This document shows, one piece after another, positions 15,914 to 60,003 of a stretch of DNA of 64,000 bases. The notes beneath the pieces were generated by a model. The model saw only the letters and a program-made list of their open reading frames with translations. It had not been told where the DNA came from and made no database searches. The stretch is taken from assembly GCA_964474445.1 (NCBI GenBank), contig CAYYSJ010000002.1:183774-247773 (forward strand). The letters are read 5' to 3'. Each line of letters begins with the position of its first letter. Positions within the stretch are counted from its first letter, which is position 1. The position numbers were made by a program, and so were the translations under genes. The stretch is from an uncultured Gammaproteobacteria bacterium. GTDB lineage: Bacteria; Patescibacteriota; Microgenomatia; Levybacterales; UBA12049.

Positions 15914-16772
15914 CCTGCATCGGTTGATTTTCTCAACACTTGCATATTTTGATATATTTGATTTCCCATTAACACAAGAGGAAATACGACAATTCTTGCA
16001 CGTTTCAAAAAAAATCCCGCAACAACATGTTGAAAAATCACTCATTACAATTCCCCACAAAACTGTAGACAATAACACATTCTATTTTCTACCAGGCAGA
16101 GAAGCAATTGTACAGGGAAGATATCACAAAACAAAAATAAGTGAGACTAAACTCCGCGAGATGTTGCCCATTATACAACTGCTTGGTTTTCTCCCAAGTA
16201 TTACATTTATTGGTCTTAGCGGATCAGTTGCAATGAAAAATGGCGGGATGGAAAGTGATGTTGATGTTTTTGTTATTACTCTTCCATATACGTTATGGCT
16301 TACACGATTAAGTATTTGGATACTGCTTGGGGTATTCTCAAAAAGACGACAAAGAACTAGTACTGGTCAAGATAGCATATGCGTCAATTTGCTTATGGAT
16401 AGAAATCACCTTCTTTTCCCACTAAAAAAACATGACCTTTATACTGCCCATGAAATTATGCAAGTTCTTCCAGTTGTGAATAAATACGGAACATATGAAT
16501 TATTTTTAGAAAAAAATGCATGGGTCATGAAATACCTTGCCAATAGCTATACAGTCAATAATTCTTTGTATAGTGTACCATTTTGGTTAACTTGTGTAAG
16601 CTTTTTGTGTATACCAGTAGAGAGAGTATGTATGTGGATTCAACTTTTTTACATGAGGAATCATAAAACAATAGAACAGACAACAGCAAAATTAATTGCT
16701 TTTCATCCATATAACTATCACGATACAATTATGAATGAATACAAAAAAAGATTACAAACATATGGATTATAA
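15894..16772 (+). CDS. nucleotidyltransferase-domain protein (Pol-beta superfamily), function unknown
   Basis: Minimal nucleotidyltransferase motif GSVAMKNGGMESDVDVFVIT (GS...DxD). The start is chosen at the ATG overlapping the stop of the upstream SBP gene; the track ORF from 15852 would overlap it by 60 nt. Confidence 0.45.
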   Translation: MPRLHNNLHRLIFSTLAYFDIFDFPLTQEEIRQFLHVSKKIPQQHVEKSLITIPHKTVDNNTFYFLPGREAIVQGRYHKTKISETKLREMLPIIQLLGFLPSITFIGLSGSVAMKNGGMESDVDVFVITLPYTLWLTRLSIWILLGVFSKRRQRTSTGQDSICVNLLMDRNHLLFPLKKHDLYTAHEIMQVLPVVNKYGTYELFLEKNAWVMKYLANSYTVNNSLYSVPFWLTCVSFLCIPVERVCMWIQLFYMRNHKTIEQTTAKLIAFHPYNYHDTIMNEYKKRLQTYGL

Positions 16773-17754
16773 AACTGTTATTTGTGGTGGTACATTTGAT
16801 AGATTGCATGAAGGGCATAAATATTTTCTTCGTACCATTTTTTCATTAGGAAAACGGGTTTTGATTGGTTTAACTTCGGATACTTATACTAGACAATACA
16901 AAAAGAATGTTCTTCCATTTCAGAAGAGACTTGAGGATTTAAAAACATTTTTGGCAGAAGAAGGTCTTCTGATTCGTGCAGAAATTTTTTCTATTCAGGA
17001 TGTATATGGAAAAGCCATTGATCCAACGCTTTCATTGGATGCAATTATGGTAACAGACTCAACAAAAAGTGGGGGCGAAGCAATCAATAAAAAAAGAAGA
17101 GAACTTGGTTTGGCAGAATTACCGCTTGTTAGTATTTCACTTTTTAAGAATCATAATCACCTTGTTCTTTCTTCGACAAAAATTAGAGAGGGTGTTATTG
17201 GAAGACATGGAGAAATATACATGGATGATAGATGGAAAAAGCATACTCTTATATTACCAGTTGAGCTTCGTGGTATTCTCCATAAACCGTTCCACACGTT
17301 GCTTACCGGTCCTATTCCAAATGAACTTGTTACCCATCCTCAAACAATTGTCACCGTAGGAGATGCAACGACAAAGCGATTGAATCATGAAGGTTTAAAG
17401 CAAGTATTGTCTGTAGTGGATTTCTCGGTTGAAAGAAAATCCTTATTTCATTCTGTTACAGAATTAGAATTCTCAGGAGAAGAGGAAGTTCTTACTGTTG
17501 CAAATCCTTCTGGTCATATCACTCCACAGGTATGGGAAGTTTTACAAAAAGCCATTCTTCTGAGTCAGCAGAAGCGAGTTATTGTTCAGGTGGATGGAGA
17601 AGAGGATTTACTTGTCATCCCTCTTATTCTCTTATTGCCATTGGGATGGAATCTGTTTTACGGACAACCGAAAGAGGGAGTTGTCTATGTGCCAATTACG
17701 GAAGAGGTAAAGGAGAGAGTTTACCAATATCTTATCCAATTCGTGCGCGAATGA
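16735..17754 (+). CDS. fusion of archaeal-type phosphopantetheine adenylyltransferase (cytidylyltransferase-like) with DUF359 (GTP-dependent dephospho-CoA kinase-like) domain
   Basis: N-terminal ~160 aa VICGGTFDRLHEGHKYFL...LIGLTSD matches archaeal PPAT (COG1019-type). C-terminal ~170 aa carries TVGDATTKRL and VIVQVDGEEDLLVIP, resembling DUF359/COG1909 proteins. The start may be the second ATG at 16762. Confidence 0.55.
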   Translation: MNTKKDYKHMDYKTVICGGTFDRLHEGHKYFLRTIFSLGKRVLIGLTSDTYTRQYKKNVLPFQKRLEDLKTFLAEEGLLIRAEIFSIQDVYGKAIDPTLSLDAIMVTDSTKSGGEAINKKRRELGLAELPLVSISLFKNHNHLVLSSTKIREGVIGRHGEIYMDDRWKKHTLILPVELRGILHKPFHTLLTGPIPNELVTHPQTIVTVGDATTKRLNHEGLKQVLSVVDFSVERKSLFHSVTELEFSGEEEVLTVANPSGHITPQVWEVLQKAILLSQQKRVIVQVDGEEDLLVIPLILLLPLGWNLFYGQPKEGVVYVPITEEVKERVYQYLIQFVRE

Positions 17755-53367: not shown

Positions 53368-55539
53368 ATGGACGAGAATCAAGTACCAGATTTTTTAAAA
53401 CCAGTTTCTCCTCAAGAGGCATTAAAAAAATTTACTATTAATTTGACTGCTCAAGCAAAGTCAGGAAAAGTTGACCCGGTTATTGGTCGTGAAACAGAAA
53501 TTCGTCGGGTAATGGAAATTTTATCCAGACGTACGAAGAATAATCCCATTCTTATTGGAGATCCAGGAGTTGGAAAAACTGCAATTGTTGAAGGACTTGC
53601 CCAAAAAATTTCTTCAGGCCAAGTTCCAACAACACTAAAAGAAAAAGAAGTATTAGTACTCGATTTTGCTGCGCTTTTAGCAGGAGCAAAGTTTAGGGGA
53701 GAGTTTGAAGAGCGTTTGAAAGGGGTGATCAAAGCTGTTGAAGAAGGTGAAGGGAAATATGTTTTGTTTATTGATGAGATTCATACACTCGTTGGTGGGG
53801 GAGCGAGTGAAGGATCAGTTGACGCTGCAAATATTCTCAAGCCAAGTCTTGCGAGAGGGACACTTCGGACAATTGGGGCAACAACAGTCAATGAATATAG
53901 AAAATATATAGAAAAAGATCCAGCACTTGCACGTCGGTTCCAACCTGTATTTGTTGAAGAACCAACAATTGAGGATACTATTTCTGTACTTCGTGGTATC
54001 AAAGAGCGATACGAATTACATCATGGTATTAGAATTACTGATAACGCACTCATTGCCGCAGCCAAATTATCTGCTCAATATATTCCACAACGATTTCTTC
54101 CTGATAAAGCAATAGATCTTGTTGATGAGGCGGCAGCAGCTATAAAAATTGAAGCAGAAAGTATGCCAACAGAACTCGATGAATTAAAAAGGAAAATCAC
54201 CCAGTCAGAGATTGCCATAACCGCCCTGAAAAAAGAAAAGACAGAAATTGCTAAAGCAAAAATGCAACAAGAAGAAAATGGGTTAAAAGAGATGAAAGCA
54301 AAAGCTGAAGTAATAGAAAAAAGATGGAGAGAACAAAAAGATATTATTCAACAACTTCAGGAAAAGAGAGCGAAAATCGACGCTTTTCGAATTGAACTTG
54401 AACAAGCAGAGAGAAATATCGAGCTTGAAAAAGCAGCAGAATTGAAATTTGGGAAAATTCCAGAACTAGAAAAAGAATTACTTGCTCTTCAGGCAGATTT
54501 GGAAAAAATTCCAGAGGAAGAGAGAGTATTGAGAGAAGAAGTAGACGAGGAAGATATTGCAAGGGTTGTAAGTCGATGGACTGGGATTCCTGTAACTCGA
54601 ATGCTTTCATCAGAAGCGGATAGATTGTCTCATTTGGAAGAAGAATTGAAGGAGCGAGTTGTAGGACAAGATGAAGCATTATCTGTATTGTCTAGGGCAG
54701 TACGACGTAATCGGTCAGGGTTGGGTGCAAAAAATAGACCAATCGGATCTTTCCTTTTCCTTGGACCAACCGGAGTCGGGAAGACAGAGACAGCAAAAGC
54801 ATTAGCAGCAATTCTCTTCAATGATGATCATGCCATTACCAGAATAGATATGAGTGAGTATCAGGAATCTCATTCTGTTGCACGACTTGTTGGTGCCCCT
54901 CCTGGTTACATTGGATATGAAGAAGGAGGACAATTAACCGAGGCAGTCAGAAGAAGACCATATTCAGTTATATTATTTGATGAAGTTGAAAAGGCTCATC
55001 CTCAGGTATTTAATTTATTCCTTCAAATTTTTGATGAAGGACATTTAACTGATAGTAAAGGAGTAAAGGTTGATTTTCGAAATACCATTATTATCATGAC
55101 ATCAAATTTGGGGAGCGATATCATTCAGGGATATAGTTCAAATACAACTGAAAAAAATAAAGAACAAAATAAAAAAGAAATGGATAAAAAAATTTGGGAG
55201 CTACTTCATACAGCGTTTAGACCAGAAACGCTCAATAGACTTGATGATGTGATTATCTATAACCCACTCACTGCAAAAGAGATTTTGCAGATAGCAAAAC
55301 TACAGCTTGATCAAGTGAAGGAGAGAATGGAAGAAAATAATATTGAACTTGAAGTCGATGATGATGTGGCGATGTATTTAGCAGAAGAAGGATTTGACCC
55401 AGTCTTTGGTGCCCGGCCACTCAAGAGACTTATTGAAGAAAAAATTGTTGATCCCATCGCTCTAAAAATTATTGAAAATGAAATTAAAGCTGGAGACGTT
55501 ATCCGGCCAAAAGTAGAAGACGGGAAAGTAGTTATTTAA
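53368..55539 (+). CDS. clpB: ClpB disaggregase (AAA+), naturally lacking the N-terminal domain
   Basis: 723 aa. It begins at the position equivalent to E. coli ClpB residue ~145 (QALKKFTINLTAQAKSGKVDPVIGRETEIRRV). Walker A motifs GDPGVGKT and GPTGVGKT, an M-domain coiled coil and a C-terminal D2 small domain. No upstream ORF encodes an N-domain. Confidence 0.85.
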   Translation: MDENQVPDFLKPVSPQEALKKFTINLTAQAKSGKVDPVIGRETEIRRVMEILSRRTKNNPILIGDPGVGKTAIVEGLAQKISSGQVPTTLKEKEVLVLDFAALLAGAKFRGEFEERLKGVIKAVEEGEGKYVLFIDEIHTLVGGGASEGSVDAANILKPSLARGTLRTIGATTVNEYRKYIEKDPALARRFQPVFVEEPTIEDTISVLRGIKERYELHHGIRITDNALIAAAKLSAQYIPQRFLPDKAIDLVDEAAAAIKIEAESMPTELDELKRKITQSEIAITALKKEKTEIAKAKMQQEENGLKEMKAKAEVIEKRWREQKDIIQQLQEKRAKIDAFRIELEQAERNIELEKAAELKFGKIPELEKELLALQADLEKIPEEERVLREEVDEEDIARVVSRWTGIPVTRMLSSEADRLSHLEEELKERVVGQDEALSVLSRAVRRNRSGLGAKNRPIGSFLFLGPTGVGKTETAKALAAILFNDDHAITRIDMSEYQESHSVARLVGAPPGYIGYEEGGQLTEAVRRRPYSVILFDEVEKAHPQVFNLFLQIFDEGHLTDSKGVKVDFRNTIIIMTSNLGSDIIQGYSSNTTEKNKEQNKKEMDKKIWELLHTAFRPETLNRLDDVIIYNPLTAKEILQIAKLQLDQVKERMEENNIELEVDDDVAMYLAEEGFDPVFGARPLKRLIEEKIVDPIALKIIENEIKAGDVIRPKVEDGKVVI

Positions 55540-55580: not shown

Positions 55581-57479
55581 TTAGAAATAATTTTTTAATT
55601 GTAGTTTATAGTCCTTTATATTCCATTTTTTTCTTATTTTATTTACTTGTAGTGTTAAGTAATCTTTTGCTAATTTTTGAGAATCCTTTTCATACATATC
55701 TAAAAGGTGGGGATATTTAGAAAGATATCTTCTTATCAGGCTGTCTTCTTGTTGCAGAACATCAATGTATAAAAGCCAACGCTCGAGCGCTTTTTTCTGA
55801 AAATCTGAAAGAGATAGAGGAATAAGTTCTGGATGCAGGGCAAGATGTTTATCAGACTGATTACCGATAATGCGCAAACGGTTTTGAAAGGTAGCAATAT
55901 TCGCTGAGTATATTTGTTGATCAATAGCTTCAGATTTTTTACGAGCACCAATTGTATCCATAAGGAGGGAAAGAGACAATTTTTTTGTTCTATCTATCAT
56001 AGAACCCCCTTTTTCATCTCGTTCGGAAACAACCTTGCCGAGAATTTCTGCTTGTGCACGAGCAATACTTGGCAAAGTGCAAGAAATTGCAGTAAGAAAA
56101 GTAGTACTTGATTGTTTTGTGTTATTTGAAATGATATTGGAAAGACGTTGTCTTGCTCGTATAAAAAGTTGCATGAATTCTTTTGCTCTGTCTGAAAATC
56201 CATCCACGAGTTGTCCATTCTCTTCTTTCTTATCAGAGTTTCTCGCGCGAATACCATCTAAGACATCTGTTAAATTTCCAAATCCATAGTTGTATAGTCC
56301 GCTTATCTTTTGTAAGGTTGAAGGGCGTCCTGAGTACAATTGGTTTAGTCCCTTTTGAAGTTTAGTAAGCCCCAAAAATGAAACTTCATTAGGTGAAAGA
56401 TTTTTATCAACAATTCTGTCTAAAAGCGGTTCAAGCGTTCTCACAATTTTTCGAATTGGATTATTTTGAGCAGGAGATAATTTTGATTGTTGTGTTGTCT
56501 TGTTGTGAAAGTCTTGTTGAGGTTGTTTCGTTTCATTTACGATATCGAAAAGTTCTTGACGATTATTATGCAATGACTTTTCTATTACATTCAATATTGC
56601 TTCCGGACCATCTCCTTCGAGAATATGCAGATGAGAGTTACTTTTCTGTGCATTTTCTGCGGCCTTTTTTGCCATTGTGGTTGGATGAACAAGATACTGT
56701 GAAAGTGTATAGTATTTCGGATTATCATGCAGGGTGAGCATGGGGATATCTACTGTTGCATCACCAAAAATGAATGCGTGTATAGCCTTGTGTGTTTGCT
56801 TTGCATATTTTTCCAACAGGTATTTTACCGCGTTATCTTTTCCTCCCAATTTTGGTGTAATTAACAGCTCGCCGGAAAATATATGGGACGTGTTTTTTTT
56901 AAGCAATTTCTCTGTATACACAACACGAACCCCTGAAGAAAAGAGTGTAAGAATATCTTTTCGAATTTGCTCAAGCTGGACATATGGAATATTAAGAAGT
57001 CGAATTCGTATCAAGAACGTATTTCCTATGCCAAATGTTGCTGAATAAGATTGTGTGAGAAAATAATCACGTAAAACATTACTAATTTCTAATTTATTCC
57101 ATGTTTCTATTTTTCCATCTGCCCATTTTACTTTACTATAGTGCATCAAGGATTCCCATTCCATATCACGGGAGTAGACTCTATTCATAAGCTGATGATA
57201 GATAACTGTTCCATTTGCGGTAATAATGCTATCTGGTTGGGAAAATCCCAGAAAAGAAATTTGTCTTTTGTCTGCATCATTCCAGTCTGATCTTCCCGTT
57301 GTGATAACAAAAGGAATATCATGTGATTTGAGGTGCAGAGCTGTTTTTCTATTCACAAATGGAGCTTTCAAAATGTTAAGATTTGGGCTAAAAATTGTTC
57401 CATCAAGATCTGCAAAAACTATCCTGGGATTGTCTTGTTTTTCTAGTTTCTTTACGAGTATTTCTTCTGTTGATAGCAT
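55581..57479 (-). CDS. HAD-IIB family phosphatase fused to a soluble domain bearing a CDP-alcohol phosphatidyltransferase signature
   Basis: 632 aa, no TM helices. N-terminal HAD motifs FADLDGTIF, ITTGRS and FGDATVDIPML. C-terminal region has PNEVSFLGLTK followed by DGIRARNSDKKEENGQLVDGFSD, matching D-G-x2-A-R-x8-G-x3-D-x3-D exactly. Confidence 0.5.
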   Translation of the reverse strand: MLSTEEILVKKLEKQDNPRIVFADLDGTIFSPNLNILKAPFVNRKTALHLKSHDIPFVITTGRSDWNDADKRQISFLGFSQPDSIITANGTVIYHQLMNRVYSRDMEWESLMHYSKVKWADGKIETWNKLEISNVLRDYFLTQSYSATFGIGNTFLIRIRLLNIPYVQLEQIRKDILTLFSSGVRVVYTEKLLKKNTSHIFSGELLITPKLGGKDNAVKYLLEKYAKQTHKAIHAFIFGDATVDIPMLTLHDNPKYYTLSQYLVHPTTMAKKAAENAQKSNSHLHILEGDGPEAILNVIEKSLHNNRQELFDIVNETKQPQQDFHNKTTQQSKLSPAQNNPIRKIVRTLEPLLDRIVDKNLSPNEVSFLGLTKLQKGLNQLYSGRPSTLQKISGLYNYGFGNLTDVLDGIRARNSDKKEENGQLVDGFSDRAKEFMQLFIRARQRLSNIISNNTKQSSTTFLTAISCTLPSIARAQAEILGKVVSERDEKGGSMIDRTKKLSLSLLMDTIGARKKSEAIDQQIYSANIATFQNRLRIIGNQSDKHLALHPELIPLSLSDFQKKALERWLLYIDVLQQEDSLIRRYLSKYPHLLDMYEKDSQKLAKDYLTLQVNKIRKKWNIKDYKLQLKNYF

Positions 57480-57531
57480 ACGCTTTACCCCTTTATTGTA
57501 TCAAAACTGATGGACATGGTATGATAGATCT

Positions 57532-58362
57532 ATGGATAGTCGTCCCCATAAGCTACTTCTGAATGGTGCTCGTGAACTTTTCTCTCTTGCGGTAAGAGGT
57601 GCTGAGAAGCTGAAAGATAAGTATATTTGGACAAAAAAAGAAGTTGAGGAAGCAAGAGGATATCTTATCTACTTCCGAGACACAATGAAGCAAGAGAATG
57701 AAGATCTTTTTCACAATGTATTTGGTGAAAGTGGAGATTTTTTTGACTTGGAGCCTTTTGCAAGAGGGTACAATGCTCGAGTCTTGACATTTAAAACGAT
57801 TGTAGACGGTAAGGTAAGGAAGTGGGTTATTAAGGTTGGGTTTCGAATATCTCCAGTGGTTGATTTTGGTGATCCATCGAGCGAAGGATATTTTGAAGAA
57901 TATCAAGGGTATTTGGATAATCTTCGAAGGGCTGTCTCTCAAAAAAGTGTTTTAAAATACCTGCTTCCAGAGCCTCAGGCAATTCTTCGGGCAACACTTG
58001 ATGGAGAAGAAACAAATATGAATACAACGCTTGCTATTCAGCCATTTATGCATGTTGTACGACCCGCTGATTTAAAAAAGACTATAACGAGGGAGGAACG
58101 TCGACAACTGTTAGCAGAACTGAAAGCATTTAAGGAGTTATCTGCTTATTTGGTGAAACACCATCAAGTAGCTCCTGAGCTTATTGGAGAAGGCAACTTG
58201 GAGATTGTGCGTATTGGAGAAAAATACCACCTGATGCTGTTAGATATGGGATGGGTGGATCTTAAAAAACCTATTCCTATTACCCAAACAATCGCTCATT
58301 TCTCAAGTATCTATGTGATCTCAAAGCTTGAAAATTGGTTGAAGAATAAAGTGAGAGAATGA
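57532..58362 (+). CDS. hypothetical protein, possibly atypical protein-kinase-like fold
   Basis: 276 aa. Spaced elements VRKWVIKVG (beta3-Lys-like), EEYQGYL, LAIQPFMHVV, GEGNLEIVRIGEKYHLMLLDMGW (catalytic-loop/DFG-like without canonical Asp residues). Divergent from the HAD-CDP-OH gene. Confidence 0.3.
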   Translation: MDSRPHKLLLNGARELFSLAVRGAEKLKDKYIWTKKEVEEARGYLIYFRDTMKQENEDLFHNVFGESGDFFDLEPFARGYNARVLTFKTIVDGKVRKWVIKVGFRISPVVDFGDPSSEGYFEEYQGYLDNLRRAVSQKSVLKYLLPEPQAILRATLDGEETNMNTTLAIQPFMHVVRPADLKKTITREERRQLLAELKAFKELSAYLVKHHQVAPELIGEGNLEIVRIGEKYHLMLLDMGWVDLKKPIPITQTIAHFSSIYVISKLENWLKNKVRE

Positions 58363-58730: not shown

Positions 58731-59072
58731 TTATTCTTCTTGCTGCTTATCGATATATTTTTCTTCTACTTTCTTTAATTTATCGTTGATTGCTCTTTCT
58801 ATATCAACTCCTGCTGTCATTGCAAGTTGCATTGTTGTAATGATAACATCAGCAAATTCCACGTACATATTACGTTTATCAAATTTTGCCAATTTCGCTT
58901 TTCTTTGTAATTTCAGAATTGCCAGAATATCATTACATAACTCTCCGACTTCTTCATTCAGTTTCACTGTACGAGACAGAATTTCCTGCTCTTGAGGAGT
59001 TTTAATCCGGTAAGAAATGGGGGAATGTTCTGCAATTTTTTTCAATCTTTCTTCTACTTGTTTAAAATCCAT
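58731..59072 (-). CDS. MazG-like nucleotide pyrophosphohydrolase (small all-alpha NTP-PPase)
   Basis: 113 aa with EEVGELCNDIL and EFADVIITTMQLAMTAGVDIERAINDKLKK, characteristic of MazG-like/YpjD proteins. Confidence 0.65.
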   Translation of the reverse strand: MDFKQVEERLKKIAEHSPISYRIKTPQEQEILSRTVKLNEEVGELCNDILAILKLQRKAKLAKFDKRNMYVEFADVIITTMQLAMTAGVDIERAINDKLKKVEEKYIDKQQEE

Positions 59073-59144
59073 ACATTTTATTTTACCACATATTATTTTA
59101 CCACATCGGGTTGGAGAAATACTGAAAGTTGTGTATACTATAAA

Positions 59145-60003
59145 GGTGATTACCTACCTTCAAGCAATCATTTTGGGCATGCTCCAAGGTATTTCAGAGC
59201 TTTTTCCTATCTCTAGTCTTGGACACAGTGTTATTTTTCCCAAGCTTATTGGATGGAATGTTCATCAAGATGCTCCTTATTTTTTAAGTTTTCTCGTTGC
59301 AACCCATCTTGCGACTGCAATTGTTTTGTTTTTCTTCTTTTGGAGAGATTGGGAGCGAATTCTTTCAGGGATGTTTCGATCATTAAAAGAACGGGAGATT
59401 AAAAATGATGATCCTGATGCCAAGCTGGCATGGCTTTTGATAATAGGGACAATTCCTGCTGGTATTCTTGGCCTTCTTTTTGAAGAATCATTCAAAAAAA
59501 ATTTTGCATTTGCAAATATTGCAGCATTCTTTCTTATCTTAAATGGATTGTTGCTTTTTTTTGGGGAAATCTTGCGAAGGCGAAAATTCCTTACCCTTCG
59601 AGATAGTGATAGTCGAATTGCTCAAACGTCATGGCTACAAGCCTTGGGAGTTGGGGCAGCACAAGCCATTGCCCTTATTCCTGGATTCTCTCGTACTGGT
59701 GCAACACTTGTTGGTGGACTTTTACTAGGACTTAGTCACGAAGATGCTGCAAAATATTCATTCTTGCTAGCAACTCCTATTATTGGGGCAGCAGCATTAC
59801 TGAAACTTCCAGAATTATTTACACCAGCAGAAAGTGCCATTTTGGGTCAAACATTTGTTGGATCAATAGGTGCAGCTATTTTTGCTTATCTATCAGTAAG
59901 ATTTCTTACGAAATATTTTAAAACTAATACGTTGTTGCCTTTTGCAATTTACTGCCTTGTGATGGGGATTGGAAGTTCAGCAATTTTATTCCTATTTCGA
60001 TGA
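59145..60003 (+). CDS. uppP: undecaprenyl-diphosphate phosphatase (UppP/BacA)
   Basis: Conserved LQGISELFPISSLGHSV and PGFSRTGATLVGGLLLGLSHEDAAKYSFLL, with 8 TM helices. The start is probably GTG 59145 or ATG 59179; the track ORF from 59017 adds an unlikely N-terminal extension. Confidence 0.85.

What the first reader, a model, noticed from the sequence alone, without database searches (positions are those of the whole stretch)
55581..57479. Soluble HAD-IIB phosphatase fused to a transmembrane-less domain carrying an exact CDP-alcohol phosphatidyltransferase signature
The N-terminal ~280 aa has complete HAD motifs (DLDGT, TTGRS, GDATVD). The C-terminal half contains PNEVSFLGLTK and then DGIRARNSDKKEENGQLVDGFSD, a perfect match to the CDP-OH P-transferase pattern D-G-x2-A-R-x8-G-x3-D-x3-D. 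Canonical family members (PgsA, PssA, DIPP synthase) are 4-6-TM integral membrane enzymes, whereas this 632-aa protein has no hydrophobic helix at all. A phosphatase plus alcohol-phosphotransferase combination mirrors two-step pathways such as PGP synthase/PGP phosphatase or DIPP synthase/DIPP phosphatase, so this may be a soluble phosphodiester-forming enzyme with built-in dephosphorylation. The alternative is a degenerate, non-catalytic relic.
Basis: partly seen in the sequence, partly recalled or inferred. Interest (0 to 1): 0.6.

Follow-up and report, generated by a model that had tools for sequence, protein, structure and literature searches.

The report
Soluble CDP-alcohol phosphotransferase fused to phosphatase
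A Patescibacteria (CPR) gene encodes a HAD phosphatase fused to a water-soluble descendant of an enzyme family so far described only as six-helix membrane proteins (CDP-alcohol phosphotransferases), with every catalytic residue conserved, so it probably makes and then dephosphorylates an unknown phosphodiester compound in the cytoplasm.

The parts
55581..57479 (-). Whole gene: 632-aa HAD-IIB phosphatase fused to a soluble CDP-alcohol phosphotransferase-like domain (stop codon at 55581-55583)
   Evidence: identical gene in an independent assembly
56580..57425 (-). HAD-IIB phosphatase domain (residues ~19-300). Motif I is D24/D26, motif II T61, motif III K214, motif IV D240/D244, all invariant in 30 relatives
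   Evidence: Pfam Hydrolase_3 and S6PP above cut-off; TIGR01484 HAD-SF-IIB 39.2 bits; invariant columns in A2
56460..56579 (-). Polar Q/N-rich inter-domain linker (residues ~301-340). It ends in the conserved 'AQNNxxR' motif that precedes the juxtamembrane-equivalent helix
   Evidence: sequence; low conservation in A2/A3 except N339 and R343
55860..56459 (-). CDP-AP-like six-helix core (residues 341-540): JM1 341-356, h1 363-381, h2 388-414, h3 422-448, h4 454-479, h5 494-509, h6 513-538. Mean hydrophobicity per helix is -0.57 to +0.25
56190..56267 (-). Complete CDP-AP signature D405-x2-D408-G409-x2-A412-R413-x8-G422-x3-D426-x3-D430
   Evidence: D405, D408, G409, D426, D430 invariant and R411/A412/R413/G422 at >=90 %
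55875..56075 (-). Acceptor-pocket block (residues 469-535): L469-P470-S-I-A-R474-A-Q-A-E478 ... G492-S493 ... R497-T-K-K500 (RxxR/K) ... Q532-N-R534-L. It aligns with the 'SYxKARAE...RxER...QR' motifs of PIP/AIP synthases
   Evidence: bridging alignment; HMM alignments to 6H53/5D91; role of the two Arg taken from PMC4634129
55584..55859 (-). Family-specific C-terminal helical extension (residues 541-632; helices 559-586, 590-608, 612-618). Canonical CDP-APs lack it, and the intermediate relatives have a single TM anchor in its place
57480..57531 (.). 52-bp divergent intergenic region shared with the kinase-like neighbour
   Evidence: the promoter-like matches there are not above background
57532..58362 (+). 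Conserved divergent neighbour 'c2' (276 aa): protein-kinase-like fold, no Pfam family. Invariant K101, N222 and D238, read from sequence motifs as the beta3-Lys, catalytic-loop Asn and DFG-Asp equivalents

Best explanation
The gene encodes a cytoplasmic, water-soluble, bifunctional enzyme. The C-terminal domain descends from an inositol-phosphate-type class I CDP-alcohol phosphotransferase (the PIP / archaetidylinositol-phosphate / DIPP synthase branch). It has lost all membrane-spanning hydrophobicity but keeps the six-helix fold, the metal- and CDP-binding signature, and the basic residues that hold a phosphorylated acceptor. It transfers the substituted phosphate of a CDP-activated alcohol (most likely a soluble one, such as CDP-glycerol or CDP-inositol) to the hydroxyl of a phosphorylated polyol or sugar (inositol-1-phosphate-like), releasing CMP and a phosphodiester that still carries a terminal phosphate. 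The N-terminal HAD-IIB domain, whose nearest relatives are the sucrose-6-P and mannosyl-3-phosphoglycerate phosphatases, then removes that phosphate and makes the pathway irreversible. The divergently transcribed kinase-like neighbour may supply the phosphorylated acceptor. SHOWN: domain architecture, homology, predicted fold, conservation of the catalytic and acceptor-site residues, absence of TM helices in all members, a source record naming Patescibacteria wherever the title is informative, and conserved linkage to the kinase-like gene. INFERRED: that the protein is active, the order of the two reactions, the soluble nature of the donor, an inositol-phosphate-like acceptor, and the role of the kinase.
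Against: There are no biochemical data. Pfam PF01066 is below its gathering score for this protein (17.3-18.8 vs 22 bits). No cytidylyltransferase or inositol-phosphate synthase was found among the window ORFs I scanned or in the sampled flanks, so neither donor nor acceptor supply is documented; whole genomes could not be scanned. In one genome (L001) the CDP-AP-like domain stands alone without HAD, so the phosphatase is not strictly obligatory in cis. The nearest characterised relatives use lipid donors, so a lipid donor cannot be excluded. The alignment register at the RxxR motif is uncertain by one residue. Asp clustering around a metal site was inferred from the fold match and not measured.
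Confidence: 0.55

Rival explanations
1. A peripheral-membrane lipid enzyme. The domain docks on the membrane surface or extracts the lipid, uses CDP-diacylglycerol (or CDP-archaeol-like lipid scavenged from a host) plus inositol phosphate to make phosphatidylinositol phosphate, and the HAD domain acts as the long-sought PIP phosphatase, yielding PI in a lipid-auxotrophic CPR cell.
For: The closest characterised relatives by sequence and fold are PIP and AIP synthases. Acceptor-site residues are conserved. The intermediate relatives keep one TM anchor, and some are fused to a canonical CDP-AP domain or to a polyprenyl synthetase, which ties the branch to lipid metabolism. The PIP phosphatase step is described as unidentified in PMC4634129.
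Against: Every core helix has a mean hydrophobicity of <=0.25, and no amphipathic anchor is evident. PIP synthases accommodate the acyl chains in a hydrophobic crevice that opens to the bilayer, which a soluble protein lacks unless it forms an internal lipid pocket. No lipid-synthesis genes were seen nearby.
Confidence: 0.2
2. The CDP-AP-like domain runs in reverse or as an exchange/catabolic enzyme. It uses CMP to cleave a phosphodiester, for example a host-derived glycerophosphodiester or head group, into a CDP-alcohol plus a phospho-alcohol. The HAD domain hydrolyses the phospho-alcohol and so pulls the salvage reaction.
For: The same conserved active site is compatible with microscopic reversibility. 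CPR bacteria are scavengers (general knowledge). Fusion to a phosphatase would provide the thermodynamic pull. No biosynthetic partner genes were found.
Against: There is no direct evidence. A conserved neighbouring kinase-like gene fits substrate supply for synthesis better than catabolism. HAD-IIB relatives such as S6PP and MPGP act at the end of biosynthetic two-step routes.
Confidence: 0.1
3. The C-terminal domain is a catalytically dead relic that serves as a scaffold, oligomerisation module or CDP/nucleotide-sensing regulatory module for an ordinary HAD sugar-phosphate phosphatase.
For: It is below the Pfam gathering score. Public annotation sees only a HAD hydrolase. The spacer in the signature varies from 7 to 33 residues.
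Against: All four signature Asp, G1 and the adjacent Arg are invariant, and A, R and G2 are at >=90 %, across 30 diverged members, together with a second conserved block lining the acceptor pocket. The domain also exists on its own without HAD in L001 and in at least P0002/P0003. A relic would not conserve exactly the catalytic set.
Confidence: 0.07
4. The motif and fold match are artefacts: a chance motif in a helical bundle that AlphaFold forces onto a remembered fold.
Against: The chance expectation of the motif is 7e-7. Independent sequence-only evidence gives colinear homology over about 150-200 residues. The top fold hits are exclusively CDP-APs, by two different methods.
Confidence: 0.02

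Closest known systems
Bacterial phosphatidylinositol-phosphate synthase (MtPgsA1/MtPIPS, PDB 6H53/6H59/6H5A; RsPIPS 5D91/5D92) and archaeal archaetidylinositol-phosphate synthase (NCBIfam NF040950)
   Different: Those enzymes are integral membrane homodimers with six hydrophobic TM helices that use a lipid CDP donor. This protein has none. It scores far below the equivalog cut-offs (36 vs 180 bits), carries a 90-residue C-terminal helical extension, and is fused to a HAD phosphatase.
Bifunctional IPCT/DIPP synthase of Archaeoglobus fulgidus (PDB 4MND) and AF2299 (4O6M/4Q7C)
   Different: They are still membrane-embedded. The fused partner is the upstream cytidylyltransferase or an extramembrane domain, not the downstream phosphatase. 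They come from thermophilic archaea, not Patescibacteria.
HAD-IIB phosphatases that finish two-step solute syntheses: sucrose-6-phosphate phosphatase (PF05116/TIGR01482/TIGR01485) and mannosyl-3-phosphoglycerate phosphatase (TIGR01486/TIGR02461)
   Same: The N-terminal domain matches these models (E 2e-9 to 1e-5) with all four HAD motifs. The pathway logic is the same: a synthase makes a phosphorylated intermediate and a HAD-IIB removes the phosphate.
   Different: All scores are below the equivalog and subfamily cut-offs, so substrate specificity cannot be transferred. In those pathways the synthase partner is a glycosyltransferase, not a CDP-AP.
Weakly hydrophobic, single-anchor CDP-AP relatives (about 250-290 aa, e.g. 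P0052, P0064, P0067, P0090; one is from Candidatus Pacebacteria)
   Same: They share the family-specific 'NSxLR' N-terminal motif, the long signature spacer, and the 'LPSxxRAxAE..G..V.E' and RxxR blocks. They are the nearest sequence relatives outside the family (E 1e-18 to 1e-8).
   Different: They pass Pfam PF01066 (26-37 bits), keep a moderately hydrophobic helix 1 and a C-terminal TM anchor, and have no HAD domain and no C-terminal soluble extension. They are themselves uncharacterised.

Membership tests
Class I CDP-alcohol phosphotransferase (Pfam PF01066, PROSITE-type signature) | Eight conserved signature residues D1xxD2G1xxAR...G2xxxD3xxxD4 | tested here: met
   Residues 405-430; invariant or >=90 % conserved in 30 relatives; chance expectation 7e-7
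Class I CDP-alcohol phosphotransferase (Pfam PF01066, PROSITE-type signature) | Score at or above the Pfam gathering threshold (22 bits) | tested here: not met
   17.3 bits for the full protein and 18.8 bits for the C-half, covering only residues 394-439. Three relatives carry a precomputed PF01066 hit
Class I CDP-alcohol phosphotransferase (Pfam PF01066, PROSITE-type signature) | Six-helix core fold with a juxtamembrane helix, and the signature spanning helices 2-3 | tested here: met
Class I CDP-alcohol phosphotransferase (Pfam PF01066, PROSITE-type signature) | [quoted passage not shown] | tested here: not met
   Maximum 19-residue Kyte-Doolittle mean is 1.29; per-helix means are -0.57 to 0.25; the same holds in all 13 genome loci and in 37 of 39 strong hits
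Class I CDP-alcohol phosphotransferase (Pfam PF01066, PROSITE-type signature) | Divalent-metal-dependent transfer of a substituted phosphate from a CDP-alcohol with release of CMP | not testable with these tools
   Requires an enzyme assay
PIP / archaetidylinositol-phosphate / DIPP synthase branch (inositol-phosphate acceptors) | NCBIfam equivalog cut-offs (NF040950 180 bits; NF045883 170 bits) | tested here: not met
   33.6-35.9 bits and 17.5-19.9 bits. These are nevertheless the best-matching subfamilies
PIP / archaetidylinositol-phosphate / DIPP synthase branch (inositol-phosphate acceptors) | Two conserved Arg that bind the acceptor's phosphate (MtPIPS R155 in an RxxR motif, and R195 on TM6) | tested here: met
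   R497-T-K-K500 (family consensus RTKR; R497 invariant) and invariant R534 align with them. The register at RxxR is uncertain by one residue, and the window protein has K rather than R at position 500
PIP / archaetidylinositol-phosphate / DIPP synthase branch (inositol-phosphate acceptors) | Genomic supply of inositol phosphate (MIPS) and of the CDP donor (CdsA or a cytidylyltransferase) | tested here: inconclusive
   None among the window ORFs of 150 aa or more that were scanned, nor in the locus flanks sampled by Pfam. The only CTP_transf_like gene is PPAT/DPCK.
HAD superfamily, subfamily IIB phosphatase | Catalytic motifs I (DxDGT), II (T/S), III (K) and IV (GDxxxD) | tested here: met
   D24 D26 T61 K214 G239 D240 D244 invariant in 30 relatives
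HAD superfamily, subfamily IIB phosphatase | Profile membership (Pfam Hydrolase_3 / S6PP; TIGR01484 HAD-SF-IIB) | tested here: met
   PF08282 38.1 bits (cut-off 20.9) and PF05116 37.7 bits (cut-off 20.3). TIGR01484 at 39.2 bits is just under its 41.8 cut-off
HAD superfamily, subfamily IIB phosphatase | C2B cap inserted between motifs II and III | tested here: inconclusive
   A ~150-residue insert lies between T61 and K214, and the alignment covers profile positions 1-221 of 255. This domain was not modelled
Bifunctional IPCT/DIPPS | N-terminal CTP:inositol-1-phosphate cytidylyltransferase domain fused to the CDP-AP domain | tested here: not met
   The N-terminal domain is HAD-IIB, with no nucleotidyltransferase hit

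The most novel reading that the evidence does not exclude
This is a natural, fully water-soluble and still catalytic descendant of a polytopic membrane enzyme fold. The 6-TM CDP-alcohol phosphotransferase core was re-surfaced with polar residues in Patescibacteria, through surviving single-anchor intermediates. It works with a fused phosphatase and a dedicated atypical kinase to make a so far unknown cytoplasmic phosphodiester metabolite, such as a di-inositol-phosphate-like or glycerophospho-inositol-like solute or precursor. It would be the first soluble class I CDP-AP, and an easily crystallised model for drug targets such as M. tuberculosis PIP synthase.
Probability: 0.5. Interest if true: 0.85.

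Novelty: new variant of a known kind. Interest (0 to 1): 0.7.

Why it matters
Class I CDP-alcohol phosphotransferases make the head groups of most phospholipids in all domains of life. The structural literature describes them as obligate integral membrane enzymes (PMC4634129). A naturally soluble member with an intact active site would matter for four reasons. First, it would show that a six-helix membrane enzyme core can be converted by evolution into a cytosolic protein, and the intermediate forms still exist. This is a natural counterpart to designed soluble analogues of membrane folds. Second, it would offer a detergent-free model for mechanism and inhibitor studies of a family that includes a tuberculosis drug target. 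Third, it points to an undescribed phosphodiester metabolite or pathway in Patescibacteria, organisms whose metabolism is largely unknown. Fourth, it corrects an annotation gap: about 45 proteins are currently labelled only 'HAD-IIB hydrolase', and about 80 kinase-fold neighbours are labelled 'hypothetical'.

Tried and rejected
- Single-sequence phmmer of the whole protein and of the C-half against PDB sequences found nothing useful. The profile of close relatives alone reached only E 0.06. The bridging profile was needed.
- The look-up of encoding contigs with the window reference returned nothing, but it worked with P0009.
- The HAD domain is not encoded next to the stand-alone C-domain in L001. 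The 268-aa upstream gene (c1) is unrelated to HAD.
- The neighbour families c1 and c2 have no Pfam, NCBIfam (c2 only), PDB-sequence or PADLOC match, and they are unrelated to each other (hhalign probability 0.6 %). c1 is absent from the window.
- An anti-phage defence reading was considered and dropped. There are no PADLOC hits, and the locus sits in conserved housekeeping synteny (ClpB, UppP, RF, MazG-like) across genomes.
- The cytidylyltransferase candidate at 16735-17754 was rejected as a partner. It is a PPAT plus GTP-dependent dephospho-CoA kinase fusion.
- The afdb50 fold library was unavailable.
- Literature searches found no description of a soluble class I CDP-AP or of CDP-APs in CPR. 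The library is incomplete, so this is absence of evidence only.
- Promoter and terminator scans were uninformative.
Full report
1. THE OBSERVATION

The minus-strand ORF 55581-57479 exists as described: 632 aa with an ATG start. The identical gene, with identical neighbours, is present in an independent Logan assembly of run SRR12266073, so it is not an assembly artefact.

Pfam places residues 19-250 in Hydrolase_3 (38.1 bits, cut-off 20.9) and S6PP (37.7 bits, cut-off 20.3). NCBIfam gives Cof-type/HAD-IIB, then the sucrose-phosphate phosphatase and mannosyl-3-phosphoglycerate phosphatase models. All of these score below their specific cut-offs.

The CDP-alcohol phosphotransferase pattern lies at residues 408-430. 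The upstream D1 is also present, so the full eight-residue signature D405xxD408G409xxA412R413-x8-G422xxxD426xxxD430 is intact. Given this protein's composition, the pattern is expected 7e-7 times by chance. None of 200,000 shuffles contains it, and it is the only match in the six-frame translation of the window.

The highest 19-residue Kyte-Doolittle mean anywhere in the protein is 1.29, and that lies in the HAD domain. The C-terminal half peaks at 0.97.

2. THE MOTIF IS NOT ISOLATED; THE WHOLE CORE IS HOMOLOGOUS

Pfam's CDP-OH_P_transf model sees only residues 394-439 and stays under its threshold (17-19 vs 22 bits). On its own that would fit a chance motif.

NCBIfam's archaetidylinositol-phosphate synthase model, however, aligns residues 345-512 to profile positions 8-160 of 191 at E 3e-8 (7e-9 for the C-half alone). 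The PIP synthase model follows at E 5e-4.

I aligned the C-half with its seven close relatives and used that profile to search 1.84 billion representative proteins exhaustively. It found 40 proteins below E 1e-30, which are the family proper. After that came a long tail of 250-300-aa proteins at E 1e-18 to 1e-5.

The sampled tail members pass Pfam PF01066 (26-37 bits), and their best NCBIfam matches are again the AIP and PIP synthases. One hit (P0127, 193 aa) is a canonical hydrophobic AIPS-like enzyme scoring 143.8 bits.

A MAFFT alignment of all three classes is colinear from the juxtamembrane helix to helix 6. Shared landmarks are sPNxxT/SxxG, the signature, LPSxxRAxAE..G, an RxxR/K motif and a Q/N-R-L motif. 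A profile built from this bridging alignment hits M. tuberculosis PIP synthase (6H53) at E 3.4e-18 and R. salmoninarum PIP synthase (5D91) at E 4e-12, with the latter alignment running through helix 6.

3. THE FOLD

AlphaFold2 on the C-domain with 36 homologues gave pLDDT 92.3 and pTM 0.91. The model is all-helical.

- Foldseek against the PDB returns class I CDP-APs as its top 18 hits. The TM-score normalised to MtPIPS is 0.72-0.74 over about 200 columns.
- In full-length numbering the helices are JM1 341-356, h1 363-381, h2 388-414, h3 422-448, h4 454-479, h5 494-509 and h6 513-538. Three extra helices (559-618) have no counterpart in canonical enzymes.
- D1xxD2G sits at the C-terminal end of h2, and G2xxxD3xxxD4 at the start of h3, as in the solved enzymes.

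I could not measure inter-Asp distances because model coordinates are not exposed.

4. THE DOMAIN IS UNDER SELECTION AS AN ENZYME

In an alignment of 30 full-length members sharing 21-65 % identity with the window protein:

- The invariant columns include D24, D26, T61, K214, G239, D240 and D244 (HAD motifs I-IV).
- They also include D405, D408, G409, D426, D430 and R431. R411, A412, R413 and G422 are conserved at 90 % or more.
- A second conserved block (L469, P470, R474, E478, E486, G492, S493, R497, R534) corresponds to the region that forms the acceptor pocket between TM4-6 in PIP synthases.

Clarke et al. (PMC4634129) showed that two Arg bind the phosphate of inositol phosphate and are needed for activity: MtPIPS R155, which lies in an RxxR motif, and R195. 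The family's R497-T-K-[KR]500 and invariant R534 align with these positions, although the register at RxxR is uncertain by one residue.

This pattern rules out a decaying relic. It also suggests that the acceptor carries a phosphate, which gives the fused phosphatase a job.

5. NO MEMBER IS A MEMBRANE PROTEIN, AND INTERMEDIATES SURVIVE

- Maximum hydrophobicity is 1.54 or lower in all 13 genome loci. It is below 1.6 in 37 of the 39 hits scoring better than E 1e-30.
- Per-helix means are -0.57 to +0.25 in the window protein. They are 0.1-1.3 in the intermediates, where only h1 is still moderately hydrophobic and a single C-terminal TM anchor is present. They are 0.85-1.81 in canonical P0127. 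Charged residues make up 22 % of the helices against 13 % in P0127.
- Some intermediate-type domains are fused to a canonical CDP-AP domain, and one is fused to a polyprenyl synthetase. The branch therefore arose beside lipid enzymes.

6. DISTRIBUTION AND CONTEXT

All members come from metagenomes or MAGs. Wherever the record title is informative it says Patescibacteria, Levyibacteriota, Roizmanbacteria or Saccharimonadales. Several MAGs titled 'uncultured Gammaproteobacteria' carry the same locus. Public names are only 'HAD-IIB family hydrolase' or 'HAD family hydrolase'.

Twelve of the 13 genome loci have the N-terminal HAD fusion. The Levyibacteriota MAG (L001/L008) has a stand-alone 302-aa domain.

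The locus sits in conserved housekeeping synteny: ABC transporter, ClpB, target gene, c2, MGMT-like, MazG-like, UppP and RF. Two neighbours are specifically linked to it.

- c1 is about 270-310 aa and lies co-directionally, directly upstream, in the more distant loci and in L001. It has no detectable family.

No cytidylyltransferase or inositol-phosphate synthase turned up among the window ORFs I scanned. The one CTP_transf_like gene is a PPAT/dephospho-CoA kinase fusion.

7. MOST LIKELY MECHANISM

Shown:
- the architecture, the homology and the predicted fold;
- active-site and acceptor-site conservation;
- solubility, as predicted from sequence;
- linkage to the kinase-fold gene.

Inferred:
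- The C-domain binds a CDP-activated alcohol and divalent metal through D405, D408, D426 and D430. D430 would be the catalytic base, by analogy with D4 in PMC4634129.
- It transfers the alcohol-phosphate to a hydroxyl of a phosphorylated polyol held by R497, K500 and R534, releasing CMP.
- The HAD domain (nucleophile D24) then removes the remaining terminal phosphate.

This mirrors PIP synthase followed by PIP phosphatase, and DIPP synthase followed by its phosphatase. It also mirrors the way HAD-IIB enzymes finish sucrose and mannosylglycerate synthesis.

Because nothing in the protein can sit in a bilayer, a soluble CDP-alcohol donor is more likely than CDP-diacylglycerol. The kinase-fold neighbour could generate the phosphorylated acceptor from a scavenged alcohol. 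I put this overall reading at about 0.55, and the specific claim of an inositol-phosphate-like acceptor at roughly 0.35.

Rivals:
- a peripheral enzyme acting on CDP-DAG, making PI (0.2);
- a reverse or salvage reaction pulled by the phosphatase (0.1);
- a non-catalytic module (0.07);
- an artefact (0.02).

8. COMPARISON WITH KNOWN FAMILIES AND NOVELTY

The domain works like, and descends from, class I CDP-APs of the inositol-phosphate-acceptor branch. It nevertheless fails two membership criteria: the Pfam and NCBIfam score cut-offs, and the defining property of being an integral membrane protein. It should therefore be described as a soluble CDP-AP-like family, not filed as a PIP synthase.

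I found no description of a soluble class I CDP-AP in the searchable literature. [quoted passage not shown]

I rate it a new variant of a known kind, with interest 0.7. A specialist would be surprised by a natural soluble version of this fold with the catalytic apparatus intact. It is also directly testable with a simple expression-and-assay experiment.

Noticed in passing
window 16735-17754 (+): A 339-aa fusion of phosphopantetheine adenylyltransferase (PDB 3DO8, E 6e-20) with an archaeal-type GTP-dependent dephospho-CoA kinase (PDB 8JVC, E 2e-23; Pfam DUF359). The last two CoA-synthesis steps sit in one polypeptide in a CPR bacterium.
   Followed up: partly
proteins P0058, P0060, P0070, P0097, P0105, P0061, P0088 (one search hits, not in the window): Weakly hydrophobic 'intermediate' CDP-AP domains occur in tandem with a canonical PF01066 domain (430-480 aa proteins, possible built-in pseudo-heterodimers). 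One is fused to a polyprenyl synthetase (P0061, 769 aa). P0088 (722 aa) has a DxDGT motif plus one TM segment.
   Followed up: partly
L001:6326-7132, L007:6304-7191, L009:6241-7185, L010-L014 (alignment A5): Conserved ~270-310-aa gene 'c1' directly upstream of, and co-directional with, the fusion gene in the more distant loci. It has no Pfam, PDB or PADLOC match. Its invariant HRFVGGxSxGG ... DxD(L)I pattern resembles pol-beta-type nucleotidyltransferases, which would be a candidate activating enzyme, but this is untested.
   Followed up: partly
window 53368-55539 (+); L001:9446-11611: The ClpB-like AAA+ chaperone next to the gene is only 721-723 aa and appears to start at the first nucleotide-binding domain, with no N-terminal Clp_N domain. 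This holds in both genomes.
   Followed up: no
L002, L009-L014 (record titles): MAG records titled 'uncultured Gammaproteobacteria bacterium' carry the same Patescibacteria-type locus and synteny as Levy-/Roizmanbacteria MAGs. The titles look like placeholder or wrong taxonomy.
   Followed up: no
L009:1744-6504 and the equivalent stretches in L011, L013, L014: Upstream of c1 and the fusion gene, these loci share two GT4 glycosyltransferases (the first has a sucrose-synthase/SPS-like N-terminus, PF00862 E 1e-9), a glutaredoxin-fold protein with a long Pro-rich tail, and a GH18-like protein. An SPS-like synthase near an S6PP-like HAD domain may or may not be meaningful.
   Followed up: partly
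P0008 (843 aa, JGI): This family member matches the C-domain profile in two stretches and is about 200 aa longer than the rest. It may carry a partial duplication of the CDP-AP-like domain.
   Followed up: no
window 58731-59072 (-) / 59017-60003 (+): The mechanically called UppP/BacA ORF overlaps the MazG-like gene by 56 bp. The independent gene call in L015 gives BacA 274 aa, so the real start is probably an internal Met.
   Followed up: no
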